NCBI GenBank assembly: GCA_007378985.1
Contig: VMHB01000001.1
Span: 192,252-256,251, forward strand
Reading direction: 5' to 3'
Source: Parcubacteria group bacterium Greene0714_7
GTDB lineage: Bacteria > Patescibacteriota > Minisyncoccia > Phycocordibacterales > Phycocordibacteraceae
DNA length: 64,000 nt
Shown here: in pieces, positions 6,236-52,969 of the stretch
Position numbering within the stretch: the first letter of the stretch is position 1
Layout: each line of letters opens with the position of its first letter
Program-made: the position numbers and the translations under genes
Notes under the pieces: generated by a model
The model's input: only the letters and a program-made list of their open reading frames with translations
Databases searched by the model: none
Told to the model about the DNA's origin: nothing

Positions 6236-6321
6236 TTTCTAAATTTCTACTCCTCTCGAATTTCTAACTCTTAGAAAGAACTGTGTGAGAAAATTTTTCC
6301 GCAATACCTTTATAAACTCAT

Positions 6322-6357
6322 CCTCTAAACACTATCATATATGATAGTGTTTAGAGG
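6322..6357. promoter_or_regulatory. 36-bp perfect palindrome (operator-like) ending at the start codon of the TrpR-like gene
   Basis: CCTCTAAACACTATCATATATGATAGTGTTTAGAGG. A TATAAA box lies about 6 nt upstream. Confidence 0.6.
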
Positions 6358-6786
6358 ATGAAGGTTAAACCAAAAAAACTCACAAAAGATCAAATTATTG
6401 AAACTCTTGATGCTTTATATACAGCGGCAGGGTCACTACGAGGGCGTGCCACTATGAAATTATTTCTTCGCGATCTTCTGACCGAAGGAGAGAGGGTGAT
6501 GCTTGGTAGACGCATTCTGATTGCAAGACATCTTTTACGGGGTGAAAGCTATATCAGTATTCAACGTACTCTTGGCACAAGTCCTGTAACAATACGAAAT
6601 GTAGAGAAATGGTTAGACGATCAAATGCCGGGGTACGAGACAGCGATTAAGGGTATGCAAGCAACTTTTGCAAAGCGAAAACAAAAAAGCGCATCCATTG
6701 GCACATTTGCTTACTTAAAGAAGCGTTACCCGTTGCACTTTCTCCTCTTTCCGTGGCCAAAAGGGTATCGTACGGAAGATCAGTAA
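6358..6786 (+). CDS. TrpR-like DNA-binding protein (YerC/YecD family), paralog 1
   Basis: Conserved family segment LYTAAGSLRGRATMKLFLRDLLTEGERVMLGRR. It is paralogous to the ORF at 52390-52782. Confidence 0.8.
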   Translation: MKVKPKKLTKDQIIETLDALYTAAGSLRGRATMKLFLRDLLTEGERVMLGRRILIARHLLRGESYISIQRTLGTSPVTIRNVEKWLDDQMPGYETAIKGMQATFAKRKQKSASIGTFAYLKKRYPLHFLLFPWPKGYRTEDQ

Positions 6787-20621: not shown

Positions 20622-21767
20622 ATGTCACGGGTAAAAATTACGGAGTATAGAGCTAAGAAACTTATACTTGGGGACGCATATGCGGGTCGTTCCTTGTCGG
20701 GTATTTCTGATGTTGGGTTTACGAAACCCAACATGGTGGTGAAGGTTGATCAAGGGATTAAGAAGCGTTTTAAGCAGGGGCTTGTTGCGGTCAATGTTTC
20801 TTCAAAGGAGGCAGGGCAGAAAGTAAGGGAATGGGAAAAGCGAGGTTTTTCTCATTTTCTTGTTGAGCCGTATGTATCGCATGAGGAGTCTGAAGAGCAG
20901 TACCTTTTTTTAGAGCGGGTACGCACGGGGATACGAGTTCTACATGCTTCTTCGGGTGGTATTGATATCGAGGCACACCCAGAACTAGTGAAAACATATC
21001 TCATAAACCCGGCACTATCATATATGGTAGTGCCGGGCATCCCAGAAAAATTCTTGAAACATCTTGTGGAGGTGTTTGAAAAAAACTTTTTCTCTTTTCT
21101 TGAAATTAATCCACTTGTTGTTCGGGGAGATGAGGTATATATCCTCGATGCAGCGGTGCTCGTCGACAGCGCGGGAATATTTTTCGTCAAAAATGGATGG
21201 AACGAAGAAGACGTTGTTGAGGGAAAGGTACGACATATTGCTGAAGAAAAAGTACAGGCACTTCAAAAAACTACCCCTGCCTCCCTGAAACTCACCATTT
21301 TGCACCCTGATGGAGGTTTGTTTTTTCTGCTTTCAGGTGGTGGTGGAAGTATTGTTATTGCAGATGAGGCAGAACTTAATGGTGTGGGTCGCTCCATTGG
21401 TAATTATGGAGAATATAGCGGTGGTCCAACTCGAGAAGAAACACATCTCTACGCACGAGAGGTGATTCAGCTATTACTTAATTCACCTGCAAAGAAGAAG
21501 GCGCTCGTGATTGCTGGAGGTATTGCAAATTTTACTGATGTTAAGTCAACATTTAAGGGTATTGTTGATGCCTTGTCAGAGTGCGCGAGCACTCTTCGAG
21601 GAAAAGGTGTAAAAGTATTTGTGCGTCGTGGCGGACCGAATGAAATTGAAGGGCTTCTTTTTATGGAAGAGTATTTAAAAAAAGAAAAATTATTTGGTTC
21701 AGTGTATGGTTCTGGTGCAGTAATTACGAGTGCAGTTGATGATGCCATTGCATTTATAAAAAAATGA
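20622..21767 (+). CDS. aclB: ATP-citrate lyase beta subunit (ATP-grasp, SucC-like)
   Basis: Blocks match the N-terminal half of ATP-citrate lyase: VVKVDQGIKKRFKQGLVAVN, FLEINPLVV, ASLKLTILHPDGG, GNYGEYSGGP, ALVIAGGIANFTDVKSTFKGIV and VFVRRGGPN. Confidence 0.8.
   Translation: MSRVKITEYRAKKLILGDAYAGRSLSGISDVGFTKPNMVVKVDQGIKKRFKQGLVAVNVSSKEAGQKVREWEKRGFSHFLVEPYVSHEESEEQYLFLERVRTGIRVLHASSGGIDIEAHPELVKTYLINPALSYMVVPGIPEKFLKHLVEVFEKNFFSFLEINPLVVRGDEVYILDAAVLVDSAGIFFVKNGWNEEDVVEGKVRHIAEEKVQALQKTTPASLKLTILHPDGGLFFLLSGGGGSIVIADEAELNGVGRSIGNYGEYSGGPTREETHLYAREVIQLLLNSPAKKKALVIAGGIANFTDVKSTFKGIVDALSECASTLRGKGVKVFVRRGGPNEIEGLLFMEEYLKKEKLFGSVYGSGAVITSAVDDAIAFIKK
21011..21034. promoter_or_regulatory. 24-bp near-perfect palindrome inside aclB that matches the TrpR-like paralog-1 operator core (19/20)
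   Basis: GGCACTATCATATATGGTAGTGCC versus operator CACTATCATATATGATAGTG. Confidence 0.4.
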
Positions 21768-21813
21768 ACCCCGTTAGAAATACCACCTGCACAGATTTCT
21801 AAAATATTTATAT

Positions 21814-23652
21814 ATGAAAAAGCGCATTGATAAAATTTCTAACGGGGTGAACATACTTGAATTAACACGGAGTGGAAGAGCAAGAGTTCTCGTCATAGGG
21901 AATCATTCAGGCATTATTCAGTCAATGCTCGATTTTGATTTTCTTTCAGGCAAGGAAATTCCTTCTGTATTGGGGATAGTTGCAGGGAATCGTAAGGCAG
22001 AAAAATATTTTTTTGGGACTAAAGAAATTTTGTTGCCATGCTATAAGAATATTCAAATTGCTTCGGAGGCCTTAGGTTCAAAGGTCGACTGGATGCTTAA
22101 TCTTCAGTCGGGACGGCGTACATTTGAATCAACGGTTTCCTTTTTTGATTTTTTCCCAAAATCGCTTGGGGCACACATATTTGCAGAAAATGTTCCAGAA
22201 AGTCACGCAACTGAGCTCATTTCTCGTTTTGGTAAGAAGTATTTTATCGTAGGGCCTTCAGGAGTTGGATTGTTGATACCAGGCGCTTTGAAGCTTGGCG
22301 CCATTGGTGGTGTTGATGCGGTTCAAATTAAATCTGGAGCACTGACAAACGCTGGAAATATTGCGGTTGGTTCAACTTCTGGAGGAATGACTAATGAGCT
22401 GATTCATGCAGTTGCGCGTGCTGGGAAAAGACTCTCGTTTGCAATAGCTATTGGCGGAGACAGGTTTCCTGTAGTTTCTTTGACGCAGATATTTGCGCTT
22501 GCTGAAGCAGATTCTCAAACAGAAGGATTTGTATATTTTGGAGAGCTTGGCGGTGTAGATGAATATGAAATTATTGAGCTCATTAAGGCAAAAAAGTTCA
22601 CCAAACCTCTTGTTGCGTATATTGCGGGAATTATAGATGAAGCATTTGATGAACATGTACAATTTGGGCATGCAAAGGCATTGGTGCAGACAATGGATGA
22701 AAGTGCTCGTGCAAAGCGTGAGGCACTTCGCGAGGCTGGTGTTATTGCTCCTGATACATTTCCTCAGTTTCTTGATGCGCTTCAAAAACTTCCCGGAGGC
22801 GCGTATACTGCTGAGGAAATGGATATAGAGCCGCTTCAAGGACGACAGAAAAGTATTCTTTCGACGAGAAAGGTTTCAGACATAGATGAAGGTCGTATTT
22901 TTGTAAAAGGAAAAAAACTTTCGAAAGGCAAAGAAAATGCATTTGTGGACGCTACGTTAGTTGCACTTCTTGGAAAGCCTGTACAGTCTCCAATAACACG
23001 AGCCTTTACCGAAGCTGTGTTTGAAATGCTTATAGACCACGGAGGAAATGTTTCAGGGGCAGTAAATACCATGATTACCGCTCGTGCTGGTAAAGATCTT
23101 GTTTCATCCCTTGCCTCAGGCCTTCTCACTGTTGGTCCCCGTTTTGGTGGAGCAATAAACGAAGCAGCTCGTTTGTGGATTTCGGGTGTTGTATCGCAAA
23201 AAACAGGTTTGGAATTTGTAGCTGAAAAAGCAAAGGCAGGTGAGTTGATTTTAGGCATTGGGCACAAGAAATACCGCGTTGGGCTCCCAGATCCTCGAGT
23301 GAAAGCTCTTGCTGAATTTGCAACGCTTCTTAAAGTACATCCACATTATGATTTCGCACGGAGCGTAGAGAAAGCAACAACTTCAAAAAACGGGAAATTG
23401 ATTTTAAATATCGACGGCGCTATTGCAGCGTTACTCTTAGACATCTTGAGTGAATGCGAAGGGATGAGTCAGCGCGAACTTCAAGAGCTTGCTGATGCTG
23501 AATTCTTTAATGCATTTTTTGTTATTCCTCGCTCTGTAGGTTTCATTGCACATTTCATGGAACAAAAGAAAAATGATGAAGGTTTGTTTCGTCTTCCTGA
23601 TGAACTACTGTTTGTGAGAGCAGAGACTCCAAAGAAAACTAAGAAGAAATAA
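21814..23652 (+). CDS. aclA: ATP-citrate lyase alpha subunit (CoA-binding SucD-like domain plus citrate-synthase-like domain)
   Basis: MLDFDFLSGKEIPSV, ARAGKDLVSSLASGLLTVGPRFGG, GIGHKKYRVGLPDPR (a citrate synthase-type motif) and PRSVGFIAHFMEQ all match the ACLY C-terminal half. Confidence 0.8.
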   Translation: MKKRIDKISNGVNILELTRSGRARVLVIGNHSGIIQSMLDFDFLSGKEIPSVLGIVAGNRKAEKYFFGTKEILLPCYKNIQIASEALGSKVDWMLNLQSGRRTFESTVSFFDFFPKSLGAHIFAENVPESHATELISRFGKKYFIVGPSGVGLLIPGALKLGAIGGVDAVQIKSGALTNAGNIAVGSTSGGMTNELIHAVARAGKRLSFAIAIGGDRFPVVSLTQIFALAEADSQTEGFVYFGELGGVDEYEIIELIKAKKFTKPLVAYIAGIIDEAFDEHVQFGHAKALVQTMDESARAKREALREAGVIAPDTFPQFLDALQKLPGGAYTAEEMDIEPLQGRQKSILSTRKVSDIDEGRIFVKGKKLSKGKENAFVDATLVALLGKPVQSPITRAFTEAVFEMLIDHGGNVSGAVNTMITARAGKDLVSSLASGLLTVGPRFGGAINEAARLWISGVVSQKTGLEFVAEKAKAGELILGIGHKKYRVGLPDPRVKALAEFATLLKVHPHYDFARSVEKATTSKNGKLILNIDGAIAALLLDILSECEGMSQRELQELADAEFFNAFFVIPRSVGFIAHFMEQKKNDEGLFRLPDELLFVRAETPKKTKKK

Positions 23653-23798: not shown

Positions 23799-23869
23799 CG
23801 GGGCGGAGTATGCCGGTAGTACATACGATTCGGGTTCGTATAGACCGAGTTCGATTCTCGGCGCCCCGA
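23799..23869 (+). tRNA. tRNA-Pro (anticodon CGG)
   Basis: Acceptor CGGGGCG/CGCCCCG, anticodon stem TACGA/TCGTA, loop TTCGGGT with G37, and T-arm CCGAG-TTCGATT-CTCGG. Confidence 0.7.
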
Positions 23870-24004
23870 CTGAACAAAGTGAAGGAGGAAGAACAGACCG
23901 ACTGCTCGGTCTGTGTCCGGAATCGAAAGTCGGAGTCATGCCGTTAGGCAGACGAGACCGGGTAGAAACCACTTAGCGAGTCCTCGAGCGGAGTTCGTTG
24001 ACGC

Positions 24005-24023
24005 CGATTCTCGGCGCCCCGAC
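24005..24023 (+). repeat. Direct repeat of the tRNA-Pro 3' end (19 nt, followed by an encoded CCA), a possible att-like remnant
   Basis: CGATTCTCGGCGCCCCGAC is identical to 23852-23870. The downstream copy continues with CA (ACCA) while the intact tRNA continues with CTG. Confidence 0.6.
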
Positions 24024-24126
24024 CATAGAGGTCAAATATATTTTTTATTCATGGGCCTATAAGCAAAGCTTTTAGGCTCCTCTCTCGAAAAAAGTAGACA
24101 TACATGCCATACTTTCTTTCTCGTTC

Positions 24127-24208: not shown

Positions 24209-24257
24209 ATCTCCCTCCGAAGGAGAAAATCCAGGTTCGACTCCTGGTGAGAGCACC
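24209..24257 (+). pseudogene. tRNA 3' fragment (anticodon arm with CCG, T-arm and acceptor 3' strand, but no 5' half). Possible relic of tRNA-Arg(CCG).
   Basis: TCTCC-CTCCGAA-GGAGA and CCAGG-TTCGACT-CCTGG are present. No matching D-arm or 5' acceptor strand is found. Confidence 0.4.
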
Positions 24258-24323
24258 TTTCGACTCCATGACTCACTCAGAGCAAGCACCCGTGGACTAT
24301 TTTTCTAAACACTACAAAAGAGC

Positions 24324-24365
24324 CAGTATAGTATAAGTTAACGACCGTTAAATTATACTATACTG
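24324..24365. promoter_or_regulatory. 42-bp AT-rich near-palindrome P1 (20-bp arms, AC centre)
   Basis: CAGTATAGTATAAGTTAACG-AC-CGTTAAATTATACTATACTG. Confidence 0.5.
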
Positions 24366-24409
24366 ATTGAAACTGCTTTTATTTTAGAATTAATTTTTTA
24401 CTCAATTTT

Positions 24410-24721
24410 TTATTTGGCCTTTTTTAAAAATTTGACGCTCAAAGGTGAAATGTTTGGATAGAGGCGTGCTAATTCTGTCGGGTCAGATTTATACGGTGTG
24501 AATGCTTCAATAGTTGCATCTGATGCGGTGCCTGGTCCAAGCCATACAGTATCCCCACCTTCATCAGTATGTCTTTCAATGTGAAATACTCGGTAGACAA
24601 TGCCGGGGAAAAAATGAGGAGCAAGAGAAATAAAGTCTTGCGCTGAGAGGGCTCGTAGTTTCACCCGATCTCCTTTTTGAAGAAAGAGATGTTCAGGTTT
24701 TCGGTGGTCTTTTTCTGACAT
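24410..24721 (-). CDS. Hypothetical protein (103 aa) bracketed by palindromes P1 and P2
   Basis: The ORF is intact but has no recognisable domain. Confidence 0.45.
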   Translation of the reverse strand: MSEKDHRKPEHLFLQKGDRVKLRALSAQDFISLAPHFFPGIVYRVFHIERHTDEGGDTVWLGPGTASDATIEAFTPYKSDPTELARLYPNISPLSVKFLKKAK

Positions 24722-24797
24722 AGATGCCGTTTATTATATCATTTTGATTTTTTAACTCTTCAGTAATGTAATTTTTAAGTATTATTAACCAATTGCC

Positions 24798-24837
24798 TGT
24801 ATAGTATAATTTAACGACCGTTAAATTATACTATACA
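24798..24837. promoter_or_regulatory. 40-bp near-palindrome P2, same family as P1, in the divergent spacer between the 103-aa gene and the NUDIX gene
   Basis: TGTATAGTATAATTTAACG-AC-CGTTAAATTATACTATACA. Confidence 0.5.
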
Positions 24838-24876
24838 CCTTAATACTACTTAGCTTAGGCGGTATATAATAAAAAA

Positions 24877-25455
24877 ATGAAAGACCGATCGTACAGAAAA
24901 CCTCTGATGCCTGAAAATGCGAAGCGTGTTTTTGAAGGTGAGATTTTTGACATGTATCAGTGGGAACAAGAGCTCTACGATGGAACTTCTGCAACTTTTG
25001 AAAAAGGTTCTCGTCCCGACACTGCTATCGTGTTTCCAATTACTGAGACTGGAGAGATTCTTATAATCGAAGATTCACAACCTCATAGAGAAACTGTTTT
25101 GACTTCAGTGAGTGGGCGAATAGAGTCAGGCGAGACTCCCGAAGAAGGAGCGAGACGGGAACTCTTGGAAGAGACAGGCTATGAAGCAAATACATGGGAA
25201 TCTTTTTACACCAGTACACCAGTAGAGAAACTCGATTGGGTTAATTATGTTTTTATTGCAAAAGGATGCAAGAAAATAAAAGACGCCAAGCCTGACGCAG
25301 GAGAAAAAATAGTTATCCGTTCGGTCACGTTTGATGAACTTATTTTACTTGCTTCAGAAGGGAAGTTACGAGGAAAGGATTTCAGCATCATGGTGCTTCA
25401 GGCGATGCTGAATCCTGAAAAAATGAAAGATTTACGAAAGAAGTTTACGCCCTAG
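24877..25455 (+). CDS. NUDIX hydrolase
   Basis: Nudix box GRIESGETPEEGARRELLEETG. Confidence 0.8.
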   Translation: MKDRSYRKPLMPENAKRVFEGEIFDMYQWEQELYDGTSATFEKGSRPDTAIVFPITETGEILIIEDSQPHRETVLTSVSGRIESGETPEEGARRELLEETGYEANTWESFYTSTPVEKLDWVNYVFIAKGCKKIKDAKPDAGEKIVIRSVTFDELILLASEGKLRGKDFSIMVLQAMLNPEKMKDLRKKFTP

Positions 25456-39181: not shown

Positions 39182-39790
39182 ATGTCTGCTAGAATAGGCG
39201 ACATGACTTCGAGCAAGAAAAAAATATTTATCCTCATGGGAAATCCCGACAGCGATTCTCGTACAGGACACCTTGCTGATGCATATGAACTCGGAGCTCT
39301 TGAGGCGGGGCATGAAGTGAGGCGCCAAAATGTAGGCGAAATGCATTTTGACCCAATACTCCATAAGGGATATAAGGTTATTCAGGAATTAGAGCCTGAT
39401 TTAAAAACATTTCAGGAGAATGTACGCTGGGCAGATCATTTGGTGGTGCTATATCCAAACTGGTGGTCTACGATGCCCGCACTTCTAAAAGGACTCATTG
39501 ATCGAGCGTGGCTTCCGGGGTTTGCGTTTCGTTTTCATAAAACCGATGTCTGGTGGGACGGTCTCCTCAAAGGTAAAAGTGCACGAATCATAATTCTAGC
39601 CAATACACACCCATGGTTTGCGTGGCTTATGTTTGGCGAGTTCACCAATGAACTTGCTCGCGCAACGCTGGCATTTTCAGGTATAGCCCCAATTTTTATA
39701 AATGTACTTACTCCATCTGAAAAAGTTTCTGAAACCAAATGGAAAAAATGGGTGCAGATGGTGCAAGAGATGGGTTCCCGTGCTACTTGA
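39182..39790 (+). CDS. Flavodoxin-like NAD(P)H-dependent oxidoreductase (KefF/MdaB/azoreductase-like)
   Basis: Flavodoxin_2 pattern (KIFILMGNPDSDS...HLVVLYPNWWSTMPALLKGLIDR). Confidence 0.7.
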   Translation: MSARIGDMTSSKKKIFILMGNPDSDSRTGHLADAYELGALEAGHEVRRQNVGEMHFDPILHKGYKVIQELEPDLKTFQENVRWADHLVVLYPNWWSTMPALLKGLIDRAWLPGFAFRFHKTDVWWDGLLKGKSARIIILANTHPWFAWLMFGEFTNELARATLAFSGIAPIFINVLTPSEKVSETKWKKWVQMVQEMGSRAT

Positions 39791-39815
39791 CAAAAATAGT
39801 TACATGGTATATAAT
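39787..39815 (+). promoter_or_regulatory. Sigma-70-like promoter (TTGACA-N17-TATAAT)
   Basis: An exact consensus -35 and -10 with a 17-bp spacer lie 22 nt upstream of a small ORF at 39838. Confidence 0.5.
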
Positions 39816-39837
39816 ATGCAGTACATTAAAAAATTAT

Positions 39838-40011
39838 ATGAGCGAAGAATCACTAAAACAAATTGGACTTACTCCTGATCAGCGGGCAATTATACAACAA
39901 TTCAGAGAAAGAGGTATTATTCCAAATGCAGCACTTAAGATGCTTGAGCGACTGATGATAGACGCTAAACTCGATGCTGAGGCTACAGTTAGACACTTTA
40001 AGAGGGGTTGA
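39838..40011 (+). CDS. Small hypothetical protein (57 aa)
   Basis: The ORF lies downstream of a consensus promoter. MSEESLKQIGLTPDQRAIIQQFRERGIIP... Confidence 0.3.
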   Translation: MSEESLKQIGLTPDQRAIIQQFRERGIIPNAALKMLERLMIDAKLDAEATVRHFKRG

Positions 40012-40185
40012 GAATTGCTGATTGAAGTCGAGTGTTTCATACACTAACTAGCCAATTTTTTATTTAGGAGATATTAGAAAAAAGAAAAATGGAAACAGTG
40101 GGTTGATATAGTTCAACAAATAGGAAGTAGGGCAAAATAAATTAGGACCCTCTAATAATTAATGCCCCGTGTCTCCGAAAAACAC

Positions 40186-40227
40186 CTGTATAGTATAAAA
40201 TCACGGTCGTGATTTTATACTATACAG
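40186..40227. promoter_or_regulatory. 42-bp near-palindrome P3 (same family as P1/P2, with compensatory arm changes) upstream of ychF
   Basis: CTGTATAGTATAAAATCACG-GT-CGTGATTTTATACTATACAG. Confidence 0.5.
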
Positions 40228-40287
40228 GGTTTTAAATTTTTTTTTTAGGCTAGCCACTAAAGCCTAAACCCTATACACTGCTCCTTT

Positions 40288-41399: not shown

Positions 41400-41427
41400 T
41401 TGACACTATTCAAAAATTCTATATAAT
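41400..41427 (+). promoter_or_regulatory. Sigma-70-like promoter (TTGACA-N16-TATAAT)
   Basis: Consensus boxes. A possible 46-codon ORF or sRNA follows before the membrane-protein gene. Confidence 0.45.
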
Positions 41428-48960: not shown

Positions 48961-49000
48961 CCATTTCTTATATATCGATTAATCGATATATAAGAAATGG
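48961..49000. promoter_or_regulatory. 40-bp perfect palindrome immediately upstream of a consensus promoter
   Basis: CCATTTCTTATATATCGATTAATCGATATATAAGAAATGG. Confidence 0.6.
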
Positions 49001-52351: not shown

Positions 52352-52395
52352 GACTGAGAAACTTATTTCCATATATGGAAATAAGTTTCTCAGTC
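52352..52395. promoter_or_regulatory. 44-bp perfect palindrome over the 3' end of the second TrpR-like gene. It is followed on the plus strand by a T-run, so it probably also terminates the Cas4-like gene.
   Basis: GACTGAGAAACTTATTTCCATATATGGAAATAAGTTTCTCAGTC followed by TAATTTTTTCTTTTTT. Confidence 0.6.
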
Positions 52396-52782
52396 TAATT
52401 TTTTCTTTTTTGGTTCTGGAAATAGAAGAAAATGCAACGGGTATTTGCGTTTAAGTGCTCTGAAAGAAAATGGACCATAGTTCGCCTCAAAAAGGTTTTC
52501 CCTCTTTTTGAATTCTTTATCCATGCTTTTGATTGCTTCCTCGAATCCAGGAAATTGATCTTGAAGCCATCGTTCTACTCGGTATATGGTTGCCAATCCA
52601 ACGCGTAGTTTTGTGGCGATGTCATTAGCTCGTTCGCCTTGGATAAGGAGTCGAGCTATCCAAATTCGCCTTCCAAGCATGATTCTCTCGCTTTCAGTGA
52701 GAAGATCGCGCAGGAAGAGTTTCATTGTGCTTCGTCCGCGAACTGATCCCGCTGCAGTGTAGAGAATATCTAGTGTTTTCAT
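52390..52782 (-). CDS. TrpR-like DNA-binding protein (YerC/YecD family), paralog 2
   Basis: MKTLDILYTAAGSVRGRSTMKLFLRDLLTESERIMLGRR matches paralog 1. A strong SD (AAGGAGGAG) precedes the internal ATG chosen as start. Confidence 0.8.
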   Translation of the reverse strand: MKTLDILYTAAGSVRGRSTMKLFLRDLLTESERIMLGRRIWIARLLIQGERANDIATKLRVGLATIYRVERWLQDQFPGFEEAIKSMDKEFKKRENLFEANYGPFSFRALKRKYPLHFLLFPEPKKKKLD

Positions 52783-52875
52783 TTTCTCCTCCTTTCCAAG
52801 GTCGCTAGATTTTCTTTTCATACTGAACATATTTTCATATATGGAAATATCTGCACGAAAACATGGTGTATAACT

Positions 52876-52917
52876 TCACTCACATGTATTTCCATATATG
52901 GAAATACATGTGAGTGA
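52876..52917. promoter_or_regulatory. 42-bp perfect palindrome in the divergent spacer between TrpR-like paralog 2 and the MGMT-like gene. An imperfect copy lies at 52849-52868.
   Basis: TCACTCACATGTATTTCCATATATGGAAATACATGTGAGTGA. The core TTTCCATATATGGAAA is shared with the 52352 palindrome. Confidence 0.6.
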
Positions 52918-52969
52918 ACAGATTTGGGCGTGCAAGATGAGCTAGGCAAAAGGGTGGTATATTTGATAA

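What the first reader, a model, noticed from the sequence alone, without database searches (positions are those of the whole stretch)
24324..24837. Third family of long AT-rich near-palindromes (P1, P2, P3) with compensatory arm changes
P1 (24324-24365) and P2 (24798-24837) bracket a 103-aa protein of unknown function, and P2 lies in the divergent spacer with a NUDIX gene. P3 (40186-40227) sits about 60 nt upstream of ychF. The consensus is CTGTATAGTATAA-NNNNACG-AC-CGTNNNN-TTATACTATACAG. P1 and P2 have TTTAACG/CGTTAAA at the inner arms and P3 has AATCACG/CGTGATT, so both half-sites changed together to keep symmetry. That fits a dimeric DNA-binding protein or a hairpin-forming element. The bracketed 103-aa ORF is a candidate cognate factor.
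Basis: seen in the sequence. Interest (0 to 1): 0.55.

Follow-up and report, generated by a model that had tools for sequence, protein, structure and literature searches.

The report
Dispersed hairpin-forming palindromic repeat family
The three 42-base palindromes are real, but they are copies of a repeat found between genes throughout a small group of ultra-small (Patescibacteria) bacteria, not a private control site for the 103-aa gene they bracket.

Summary
P1 (24324-24365), P2 (24797-24838) and P3 (40185-40228) are about 42-bp palindromes with the consensus CCTGTATAGTATAA-N4-ACG-RY-CGT-N4'-TTATACTATACAGG.

They are not local operators. The same element occurs at least 13-14 times in each of the two best-sampled of four related Paceibacterota MAGs. 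It is always intergenic and occurs in tandem, divergent and convergent spacers alike. It lies next to unrelated genes, mostly at positions shared between species.

The arms stay complementary through many two-sided changes. Only the central two bases are free. Mismatches show no G·U bias on the sense strand.

The 103-aa ORF has only close-relative homologues. It is missing at the syntenic locus of a MAG that keeps the palindrome, so it is not the cognate factor.

A metagenome scan with the 30-bp centre found two further families. One is a 94-102-bp perfect palindrome at 50 or more intergenic sites in an unrelated genome of about 50% GC.

Best reading: a REP-like, hairpin- or cruciform-forming dispersed repeat with a conserved hairpin tip, recognised by an unknown protein. 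Some copies, P3 among them, appear co-opted as bidirectional terminators. The element fails the defining tests for REP, and its function remains inferred.

The parts
24324..24365 (.). P1: a 42-bp palindrome copy with inner arm GTTA/TAAA (one G·A mismatch) and centre AC. It lies between the tRNA cluster (plus strand) and the 3' end of the 103-aa ORF (minus strand).
   Evidence: 68 bits. It sits at the orthologous position in L031, L037, L051 and L053. In L053, a locus found independently of the palindrome, it is 36/42 identical, against 24/45 and 26/45 for the flanks.
24797..24838 (.). P2: a palindrome copy with inner arm TTTA/TAAA and centre AC. It lies in the divergent spacer between the 103-aa ORF and the NUDIX gene. 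It has no stem extension and no T-run.
   Evidence: 60 bits. The orthologous copy in L037 shares the left flank and carries the compensated inner arm TTTC/GAAA. The copy is absent in L051, L052 and L053.
40185..40228 (.). P3: a palindrome copy with inner arm AATC/GATT and centre GT. It is extended to 20 perfect pairs (CCTG...CAGG), with further A/T pairs spanning 40180-40233.
   Evidence: 72.6 bits. It scores as terminator-like on both strands. It has orthologues upstream of ychF in L019, L020 and L028.
40229..40250 (+). T-rich tract (GTTTTAAATTTTTTTTTT) directly after P3. Together with P3 it has the anatomy of an intrinsic terminator for the small transcription unit that starts near 39822.
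   Evidence: The tract is conserved as TTTTTTAAATCTTTCTTGA in L019, L020 and L028.
24410..24721 (-). The 103-aa orphan ORF bracketed by P1 and P2. It is context only and is not the cognate factor.
   Evidence: It is absent at the syntenic locus in L031.
24733..24741 (-). Extended -10-like box TGATATAAT of the 103-aa ORF (inferred promoter). It lies between the ORF and P2, so P2 is upstream of it and not part of it.
   Evidence: Read from the sequence. The box is conserved in L051, L052 and L053 and appears as TGATATACT in L037.
24863..24870 (+). TATATAAT box 7 nt before the NUDIX ATG (inferred promoter, near-leaderless). Its distance from the palindrome is 25 nt here and differs in L031 and L037.

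Best explanation
P1-P3 are three members of a dispersed family of about 42-bp DNA palindromes. The family is shared by a genus-level clade of Patescibacteria (Paceibacterota) genomes.

Shown:
- The element is strictly intergenic and indifferent to the orientation and identity of neighbouring genes.
- It is largely fixed in position between species.
- It is kept self-complementary by two-sided changes along the arms.
- It is built around a conserved centre, AGTATAA-N4-ACG-NN-CGT-N4'-TTATACT, whose two middle bases are free.

Inferred:
- What is maintained is the ability of one strand to fold back on itself as a hairpin or cruciform. The conserved tip would be read by a sequence-specific trans-acting protein encoded elsewhere in the genome. 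This is how REP-type extragenic palindromes work.
- Copies that lie in the path of transcription also form a very stable RNA hairpin. These copies have acquired extra G+C pairs at the base, and some a T-tract, so they can act as bidirectional terminators or 3'-end protectors. P3 clearly fits this and P1 plausibly does.
- Copies in untranscribed divergent spacers, such as P2, lack such extensions.

The palindromes do not regulate the 103-aa ORF, NUDIX or ychF in any specific way.
For: Distribution
- A scan of GTDB species genomes found 45 loci. About 40 are in four Paceibacterota or Patescibacteria MAGs, always with a 16-nt gap between the arms.
- A covariance-model search of 355 kb found only full-score copies (50-79 bits) and one 16-bit hit, which belongs to a different palindrome. 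There are no decayed copies.
- All copies are intergenic: 23 tandem, 8 divergent, 8 convergent.
- Distances to gene 3' ends and 5' ends are equal, with medians of 86 and 80 nt.

Position and conservation
- Neighbouring genes cluster into about 17 orthologous positions shared by two to five genomes.
- The window is 88-97% identical in nucleotide sequence to these MAGs.
- P1 is more conserved than its flanks in a locus retrieved independently of the palindrome.

Fold-back
- Covariation exceeds all 500 shuffles.
- In 70 copies, 63 changes are compensated and 31 are one-armed.
- Compensated changes also occur inside the 'invariant' arms, in L028, L045 and L007.
- The centre shows AT, GT, AC and GC, and it varies between orthologous copies.

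DNA level versus RNA level
- Mismatches show no G·U excess on the sense strand: 7 G·U against 11 A·C.
- P2 lies upstream of both neighbouring promoters.

Exaptation where transcribed
- Stems extend beyond the conserved CT/AG by 1.9 pairs, against 0.55 in a control that pairs flanks from different copies (p = 4e-13).
- The extension is 0.33 pairs in divergent spacers and 2.28 elsewhere (p = 0.011).
- P3 scores as a terminator on both strands.

Wider family
- The 30-bp centre also defines a 94-102-bp perfect palindrome at 50 or more intergenic sites in contigs of about 50% GC. Its changes are again compensated: 53 compensated against 41 one-armed, with the one-armed changes mostly at the outer edge.
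- It also defines a short AT-rich family.
Against: - No cognate protein was found. No transposase or recombinase is among the neighbours examined, and no gene family recurs next to copies.
- The element lacks the asymmetric GTAG head that defines REPs.
- It occurs as single units, not BIMEs.
- It is present in tens of copies per genome, not hundreds.
- Copies are positionally stable between species, and no unambiguous new insertion was seen. P2 is present in the window and L037 but absent in L051 and L053, which fits loss as well as gain.
- Perfect symmetry could be produced by templated correction of palindromes without any selection for folding.
- Other 44-bp perfect palindromes in the same window sit at the starts of TrpR-like repressor genes. 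Long perfect palindromes in this genome can therefore be ordinary protein-binding sites.
- The context tests count orthologous copies from several genomes as separate observations.
Confidence: 0.5

Rival explanations
1. The palindromes are binding sites of a dimeric or tetrameric DNA-binding protein with many chromosomal sites. Candidates include a nucleoid-associated or ParB/Noc-like organiser, a global repressor, or a roadblock insulator. The protein would recognise the duplex half-site AGTATAA-N4-ACGR. The perfect symmetry would be a by-product of templated palindrome correction.
For: - The centre is restricted almost entirely to purine-pyrimidine (RY), so each strand reads ACGR. That keeps two-fold symmetry at the purine/pyrimidine level.
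- Conserved blocks separated by a free N4, and AGTATAA units 11 bp apart in the 94-bp family, would place contacts on one face of the helix.
- Mismatches show no strand-specific G·U bias.
- Two other palindrome families in the window sit next to TrpR-like repressor genes, so long perfect palindromes here can be operators.
- One copy lies 49 nt upstream of parB in three MAGs.
Against: - The N4 region and several arm positions change on both sides together, which half-site recognition does not require.
- Stems extend into unique flanking DNA well beyond chance, and do so only where transcripts can enter.
- Sites are strictly intergenic, whereas organiser sites such as parS or NBS are commonly found inside genes (established knowledge).
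- No candidate protein was identified.
- The RY restriction can also arise from transition-only change at an unpaired loop.
Confidence: 0.2
2. The element is purely an RNA element: a bidirectional intrinsic terminator or 3'-end stabilising hairpin. The palindromic DNA simply lets the same hairpin be made from either strand.
For: - P3 has a 20-bp stem plus a T-tract on both strands.
- The consensus flanks are AAA..CCT / AGG..TTTT.
- Stem extension with G+C pairs occurs only in tandem and convergent spacers.
- The AT-rich family lies 2-11 nt after stop codons.
- RNA folding energies are -20 to -33 kcal/mol.
Against: - About a fifth of copies lie in divergent spacers, with P2 upstream of both promoters.
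- A T-run after the stem is not associated with the direction of incoming transcription: 17/64 against 12/65, p = 0.3, and mean T counts of 3.6 against 3.25, p = 0.31. T-runs are nearly absent in the 94-bp family.
- Mismatches show no G·U preference on the sense strand.
- The clade has ordinary G+C-rich terminators with 3-4-nt loops. One of them stands about 20 nt before the P3 orthologue in L020.
- Termination does not explain why 30-40 nt of stem sequence is conserved.
Confidence: 0.15
3. The palindromes are crossover sites of a site-specific recombinase, with two arms around a free central dinucleotide as in serine-recombinase sites. They bracket small gene cassettes, in the manner of integron or pdif modules.
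For: - The anatomy of about 20-bp inverted arms around a free 2-bp centre matches such sites.
- The 103-aa ORF lies between two copies in the window and in L037. SCTS01 has neither the ORF nor the second copy, only one palindrome joining the same outer flanks.
- The FMN-reductase/ychF spacer differs between genomes. L019 has one palindrome and nothing else. L028 has two palindromes around a 360-nt segment. The window and L020 carry different small genes.
- Variable small ORFs lie beside another conserved copy.
Against: - No small ORF found beside one palindrome reappears beside a different one.
- No recombinase was found in the neighbourhoods examined.
- Gene order across copies is conserved between genomes.
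- A deletion between two 42-bp direct copies needs only homologous recombination.
- Dozens of active crossover sites per genome would scramble it.
Confidence: 0.07
4. One reading: a local operator bound by the bracketed 103-aa protein, controlling that ORF, NUDIX and ychF.
For: - P1 and P2 bracket the ORF in two genomes.
- P2 and P3 lie upstream of genes.
Against: - The ORF is an orphan confined to close relatives.
- It is absent where the palindrome persists.
- P2 is absent from two relatives that keep the ORF.
- There are dozens of copies elsewhere, next to unrelated genes and in convergent spacers.
- There is no DNA-binding signature and no usable structural model.
Confidence: 0.02

Closest known systems
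REP (repetitive extragenic palindromic) elements and their RAYT/TnpA_REP transposases (REPtrons)
   Same: - Short (20-50 nt) palindromes that are repeated and dispersed.
- Almost exclusively intergenic.
- Homogeneous within a genome and shared by related species.
- Able to form hairpins in single-stranded DNA and RNA.
- Stem complementarity is kept by compensatory change.
- Some REP groups are perfect palindromes whose loop bases matter for recognition (PMC8266576).
- Secondary roles at transcript 3' ends.
   Different: - There is no asymmetric GTAG head. The element is two-fold symmetric to its ends, so REP and inverted REP cannot be told apart.
- It occurs as single units, not BIMEs.
- Copy number is tens per genome, not hundreds.
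- No RAYT gene was found in any neighbourhood examined.
- The conserved part is the hairpin tip, while the base of the stem varies.
Rho-independent (intrinsic) bidirectional terminators
   Same: - A stable hairpin.
- In many copies, extra G+C pairs at the base flanked by an A-run and a T-run.
- P3 matches the pattern on both strands.
   Different: - The stem is AT-rich and its sequence is conserved over 38 nt.
- About a fifth of copies lie where nothing needs terminating.
- T-runs are not linked to the direction of transcription.
- The same genomes have ordinary terminators.
Crossover sites of serine recombinases (hix, res site I, large-serine-integrase attB) and integron attC sites
   Same: - Inverted arms around a central dinucleotide that is the only asymmetric part.
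- Size close to attB (about 40 bp).
- Small gene-sized segments are sometimes bracketed by two copies.
   Different: - There are many copies per genome.
- No recombinase was found nearby.
- There is no evidence that the bracketed segments move.
- attC sites are conserved at their outer ends and variable in the centre, which is the opposite arrangement.
Uptake-signal pairs (Neisseria DUS, Haemophilus USS) used as terminators
   Same: - A conserved sequence arranged as an inverted pair in intergenic hairpins.
- Lineage-specific 'dialects'. For example, all copies in MAG JAZJYZ01 carry AATC/GATT.
   Different: - No solitary half-sites exist.
- None lies inside a gene.
- Density is about 1 per 20-50 kb, against about 1 per kb for uptake signals.

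Membership tests
REP / REPtron | Short palindromic repeat, dispersed and mostly intergenic | tested here: met
   All copies are intergenic. MAG JAGOSG01 has at least 14 copies and SCTS01 at least 13. The window has 3 copies in 64 kb.
REP / REPtron | Conserved tetranucleotide (usually GTAG) on the 5' side only, which makes REP and inverted REP distinguishable (PMC8266576) | tested here: not met
   The alignment of 46 copies is symmetric to its ends (CCTGTAT...ATACAGG). There is no GTAG and no one-sided motif.
REP / REPtron | Cognate RAYT/TnpA_REP gene in the genome, typically flanked by REPs | tested here: inconclusive
   No Y1-transposase hit appeared among the neighbours scanned, and no gene family recurs beside copies. 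Whole genomes could not be scanned.
REP / REPtron | High copy number (hundreds) and organisation into BIMEs | tested here: not met
   Copy number is tens per genome, and copies are single units. Where two copies lie 400-480 bp apart, they bracket a small gene or a 360-nt segment.
Intrinsic terminator | G+C-rich stem directly followed by a U-tract, downstream of a transcription unit | tested here: inconclusive
   P3 meets the feature on both strands. The family as a whole does not: T-runs occur at 17/64 sides with incoming transcription against 12/65 without (p = 0.3), and 8 of 39 copies lie in divergent spacers.
   Convergent spacers are occupied. The distance to the NUDIX -10 box is 25 nt in the window and roughly 45 and 115 nt in the two MAGs. 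The 103-aa ORF is absent from genomes that carry the sites.
MITE / transposon with terminal inverted repeats | Fixed ends flanked by a direct target-site duplication | tested here: not met
   The flanks are inverted complements of variable length (CCCCT...AGGGG, ACCT...AGGT), not direct repeats.
Integron attC / cassette recombination site | Conserved outer R/L boxes with a variable centre; cassettes that move between sites; an integrase nearby | tested here: not met
   Conservation is central and variability is outer. No small ORF is shared between different sites. No integrase was found in the neighbourhoods examined.
Any Rfam RNA family | Match at the family's gathering score | tested here: not met
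   Only tRNA and rRNA matched. Below threshold there were only generic hairpin matches to microRNA precursor models.
parS / ParB-family site | 16-bp palindrome TGTTNCACGTGAAACA with no central spacer, in few copies near the origin | tested here: not met
   The sequence differs. Only the minority variant TTTCACG-AT-CGTGAAA resembles parS, and it has four extra central base pairs. Copies are dispersed. One copy is upstream of parB. The parS consensus is recalled from established knowledge.

The most novel reading that the evidence does not exclude
The conserved hairpin tip AGTATAA-N4-ACG-NN-CGT-N4'-TTATACT would be the recognition site of an undescribed protein system that acts on folded or cruciform DNA. 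That system could be a domesticated or mobile hairpin-specific enzyme, or a chromosome-structuring protein. It would be shared between Patescibacteria and unrelated bacteria. Around this tip, lineage-specific palindromes of 30 to about 100 bp would grow and be kept perfectly symmetric by arm-to-arm templating. The small, variable genes next to or between copies would then reflect a role of these sites in gaining and losing DNA.
Probability: 0.2. Interest if true: 0.7.

Novelty: new variant of a known kind. Interest (0 to 1): 0.45.

Why it matters
Patescibacteria have tiny genomes with little non-coding DNA. A 42-bp element kept nearly invariant at a dozen or more intergenic sites in each genome examined is therefore unlikely to be neutral.

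If a protein reads the conserved hairpin tip, that protein would be a new handle on gene-boundary organisation, genome plasticity or mobile DNA in a group that cannot yet be cultured alone.

The wider family includes perfect 94-102-bp palindromes at 50 or more sites in another organism. Its changes are almost always mirrored on both arms, which makes it a clean natural system for studying how bacteria maintain long palindromes.

Practically, these repeats break assemblies, because many copies sit at contig ends. They can also be mistaken for operators, as happened here.

Tried and rejected
1. Promoter reading. Each strand reads GTATAA-17 bp-TATACT, which is sigma-70 geometry. I rejected it for four reasons:
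   - GTATAA is unlike TTGACA.
   - In the opposite reading, the last base of the TATAAN box varies (T, A, G, C).
   - The genome has canonical TTGACA-N16/17-TATAAT promoters, and the neighbouring genes have their own -10 boxes.
   - Convergent spacers are not avoided.

2. LexA/SOS box, suggested by the CTGT...ACAG ends. The length and spacing are wrong and the neighbours are not SOS genes. The Patescibacteria LexA paper (doi 10.1111/1462-2920.13826) is not held.

3. TIGR-Tas stem-loop arrays. There are no arrays and no box C/D.

4. Phage origin. There are no hits in IMG/VR.

5. Insertion into pre-existing terminator loops. The flanks pair right up to the conserved core with no loop remnant.

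6. Structure of the 103-aa protein. The AlphaFold2 model has pLDDT 42 and is unusable, so no fold search was run.

7. Sense-strand G·U bias as a test for RNA function. No bias was found, but the numbers are small.

8. Cassette mobility. No ORF is shared between different sites.

9. Literature searches for the motif, and for palindromic repeats in CPR, Parcubacteria or Patescibacteria. Nothing relevant was found.

10. Exact insertion boundaries of P2, from comparison with the P2-less spacers of L051 and L053. The spacers are too diverged to align.
Full report
**1. The observation**

- P1 (24324-24365): CAGTATAGTATAAGTTAACG-AC-CGTTAAATTATACTATACTG, with one G·A mismatch.
- P2 (24797-24838): 19 perfect pairs around AC.
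- P3 (40185-40228): CCTGTATAGTATAAAATCACG-GT-CGTGATTTTATACTATACAGG, with 20 perfect pairs.

The half-site occurs nowhere else in the 64-kb window beyond chance. Both strands fold far better than shuffled sequence, as RNA and as DNA. The gene context is as described. P1 and P2 bracket a 103-aa ORF on the minus strand. P2 shares a divergent spacer with a NUDIX gene. P3 ends 60 nt before ychF.

**2. The element is a dispersed repeat of a bacterial clade**

The window matches an ENA metagenome contig of 292 kb. A scan of one genome per GTDB species with the pattern GTATAGTATAA-N12-20-TTATACTATAC gave 45 loci. About 40 of them lie in four MAGs labelled Candidatus Paceibacterota or Patescibacteria group (JAGOSG01, SCTS01, JBBAAE01, JAZJYZ01). 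The gap is 16 nt in every one. The window is 88-97% identical to these MAGs in nucleotide sequence and is syntenic with them, so it comes from a close relative.

A covariance model built from 46 copies and run over 355 kb of held sequence found only full-score copies (50-79 bits). It added five copies that the exact pattern had missed. The only weak hit, at 16 bits, belongs to a different palindrome, so no decayed copies were found. The counts are lower bounds: at least 14 copies in about 505 kb of JAGOSG01, at least 13 in about 650 kb of SCTS01, and 3 in the 64-kb window.

**3. Context**

- Every copy is intergenic. Spacers are tandem in 23 cases, divergent in 8 and convergent in 8. Neither gene starts nor gene ends are avoided.
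- Median distances to the nearest gene 3' end and 5' end are 86 and 80 nt.
- Neighbouring genes are unrelated in function. They include NUDIX, YchF, FMN reductase, ParB, PheS, peptide deformylase, formyltransferase, Xaa-Pro dipeptidase, an ABC transporter, a cupredoxin, a LUD-domain protein and tRNAs.
- Clustering of neighbours shows that copies occupy about 17 positions shared by two to five genomes.
- P1 is present at the same place in L031, L037, L051 and L053. P3 lies upstream of ychF in L019, L020 and L028. P2 is shared with L037, with the same left flank, but is missing in L051, L052 and L053.
- L053 was retrieved through the ORF and not through the palindrome. In it, P1 is 36/42 identical to the window copy, while the flanks are 24/45 and 26/45 identical.

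**4. The 103-aa ORF is not the cognate factor**

- It has two homologues (93% and 79% identity) among 5.8 billion proteins, plus the copy in L037.
- It has no Pfam, NCBIfam or PDB relative, and its structure model is unusable at pLDDT 42.
- In SCTS01 the same tRNA cluster (Val, Pro, Ala, Arg) is followed by one palindrome and then NUDIX, with no ORF.
- The ORF and NUDIX each have their own -10-like box close to the start codon: TGATATAAT for the ORF, and TATATAAT 7 nt before the NUDIX ATG. Both boxes are conserved in relatives.
- The distance from the palindrome to the NUDIX box is 25 nt in the window and roughly 45 and 115 nt in L031 and L037. That rules out a fixed operator geometry.

**5. 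What is conserved is fold-back symmetry around a conserved tip**

- In the alignment of 46 copies, the inner pairs switch between TTTA/TAAA, AATC/GATT, AATA/TATT, TCTA/TAGA and AGTA/TACT. The covariation score exceeds all 500 shuffles and all slid controls.
- Compensated changes also occur inside the otherwise invariant arms: G/C in L028, T/A in L045 and A/T in L007.
- Over 70 copies there are 63 compensated changes and 31 one-armed changes.
- The two central bases are the only free part. They are AT (27 copies), GT (25), AC (17) and GC (1). They differ between orthologous copies in most positional groups, and always by transitions.
- All copies in JAZJYZ01 carry AATC/GATT, whereas orthologous positions in the other MAGs mostly carry TTTA/TAAA. 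Copies therefore evolve in concert within a genome.
- Mismatches show no excess of G·U over A·C on the sense strand, at 7 against 11. P2 also lies upstream of both flanking promoters. The symmetry therefore seems to be a property of the DNA, not only of a transcript.

**6. Relation to termination**

P3 scores as an intrinsic terminator on both strands and is followed by a conserved T-tract. A perfect TTGACA-17-TATAAT promoter at 39787-39815 and a 57-aa ORF (39839-40011) lie upstream of it.

Across the family, however, the terminator reading is weak.
- A T-run after the stem is not linked to the direction of incoming transcription: 17/64 against 12/65, p = 0.3. Mean T counts are 3.6 against 3.25, p = 0.31.
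- The clade has ordinary G+C-rich bidirectional terminators with 3-4-nt loops. One of them stands about 20 nt before the P3 orthologue in L020.

One signal does point to use in RNA. Stems continue past the conserved CT/AG into unique flanking sequence by 1.9 pairs on average, against 0.55 in a control pairing flanks from different copies (p = 4e-13). This extension is essentially absent in divergent spacers (0.33 pairs) and present elsewhere (2.28 pairs, p = 0.011). I read this as secondary adaptation of copies that lie in the path of transcription. The caveat is that orthologous copies from several genomes are counted separately.

**7. A wider family**

Besides more copies of the 42-bp family, it found two further families.
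- A 94-102-bp perfect palindrome, TCCTCCYTGCTTGATTACCTTAGTATAACCTTAGTATAACCTTACG-NN-(mirror), at 50 or more distinct intergenic sites in contigs of about 50% GC.
  - Its arm contains the unit AGTATAACCTT twice, 11 nt apart.
  - Interior changes are almost all mirrored on both arms.
  - Its neighbours are 119 unrelated families, including a complex I subunit, with none recurrent. The complex I subunit suggests, but does not show, that the host lies outside the Paceibacterota clade.
- A short AT-rich form, AGTATAAAAAAACGGCCGTTTTTTTATACT. It occurs four times in 7.6 kb of L086, with three of the copies 8-11 nt after a stop codon.

Because palindromic families carry only about 10 independent specified bases of this pattern, chance convergence cannot be fully excluded. 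Three families sharing the same centre in the same register nevertheless points to a common recognition requirement.

No Rfam family matches any of these elements. No IMG/VR contig carries the 42-bp element.

**8. Interpretation**

The distribution, symmetry, concerted evolution and hairpin potential are those of REP-type extragenic palindromes, which I take as the closest working model. That model is a fold-back DNA element read by a trans-acting protein, with some copies recruited as terminators or 3' protectors.

It is not a member of the REP family as defined (PMC8266576). There is no one-sided GTAG, no BIME organisation, only tens of copies, and no RAYT gene in the neighbourhoods examined.

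- A duplex-binding dimeric protein remains a serious rival. The evidence for it is the RY symmetry, the 11-bp phasing, and two other palindrome families in the window that sit at TrpR-like repressor genes.
- A recombination-site reading is suggested by small segments present or absent between or beside copies. It lacks any sign of cassette movement.

**9. Verdict**

The proposed local operator and its 103-aa factor are not supported.

The element is a new variant of the dispersed-palindrome kind, with an unusual conserved tip and strict symmetry. Its biochemical function is inferred, not shown.

Noticed in passing
window 6318-6361 with ORF 6358-6786; window 52352-52395, 52824-52855 and 52875-52918 around ORF 52390-52830; window 21008-21037: Two paralogous TrpR-like proteins are 58% identical. 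One passes the Pfam Trp_repressor threshold. The other has a weak NCBIfam TrpR/YerC match. Each has perfect 44-bp palindromes centred on CATATATG at or around its start: ACTATCATATATGATAGT for one, ATTTCCATATATGGAAAT for the other. These are probably autoregulatory operators. A related 30-bp palindrome lies inside the citrate-lyase gene.
   Followed up: partly
window 48961-49000; L011 5760-5789; L024 6785-6818: Another palindrome family shares the centre CGATTAATCG, with different, perfectly symmetric outer arms. No adjacent candidate factor was examined.
   Followed up: no
window 23799-24024; L031 1146-1352 and 1713-2052; L037 3395-3634: Several tRNA genes are followed by an insert of 130-250 nt and then a second copy of the tRNA 3' end. 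The inserts share a GGAATCGAA motif. This looks like remnants of small elements integrated into tRNA 3' ends.
   Followed up: no
window 24209/24210 versus L001 10514-10594: The window lacks 81-82 nt that are present in the matching ENA contig. The deletion removes the 5' half of tRNA-Arg(CCG), and AGGA microhomology lies at its edges. The window therefore carries a truncated pseudo-tRNA at about 24210-24258, while the other assembly has the intact gene.
   Followed up: yes
window 20622-23652 (also L031, L037, L154, L172): Both subunits of an ATP-citrate-lyase-like enzyme (Citrate_bind; Ligase_CoA plus Citrate_synt) are present in a clade labelled Patescibacteria. An F-type ATPase operon and an RND efflux pump are nearby. 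This is unusual metabolic content for the group.
   Followed up: no
window 39787-39815, 39839-40011 and 41400-41427: Two perfect consensus sigma-70 promoters (TTGACA-17/16-TATAAT) are present. The first drives a 57-aa ORF between the FMN reductase gene and P3. The same spacer holds a different small gene in L020, a 360-nt segment between two palindromes in L028, and nothing in L019.
   Followed up: partly
L054 9211-9304 and about 50 further metagenome loci (L055-L173): A perfect palindrome of 94-102 bp is repeated at many intergenic sites of an organism of about 50% GC. Its outer ends read TCCTCC...GGAGGA, so in some copies the right end supplies a Shine-Dalgarno-like AAGGAGGA 5 nt before an ATG. 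Many copies sit at contig ends.
   Followed up: partly
L044 7770-7807, L007 279-316 and L029 2588-2625: One conserved copy of the 42-bp palindrome lies 49 nt upstream of parB, divergent from tRNA-Leu. The minority inner variant TTTCACG-AT-CGTGAAA resembles parS half-sites with four extra central base pairs.
   Followed up: no
window 24863-24879; L051 about 654-683: The NUDIX gene has a -10-like box only 6-7 nt before its ATG and no Shine-Dalgarno sequence. This suggests a leaderless or near-leaderless mRNA.
   Followed up: no
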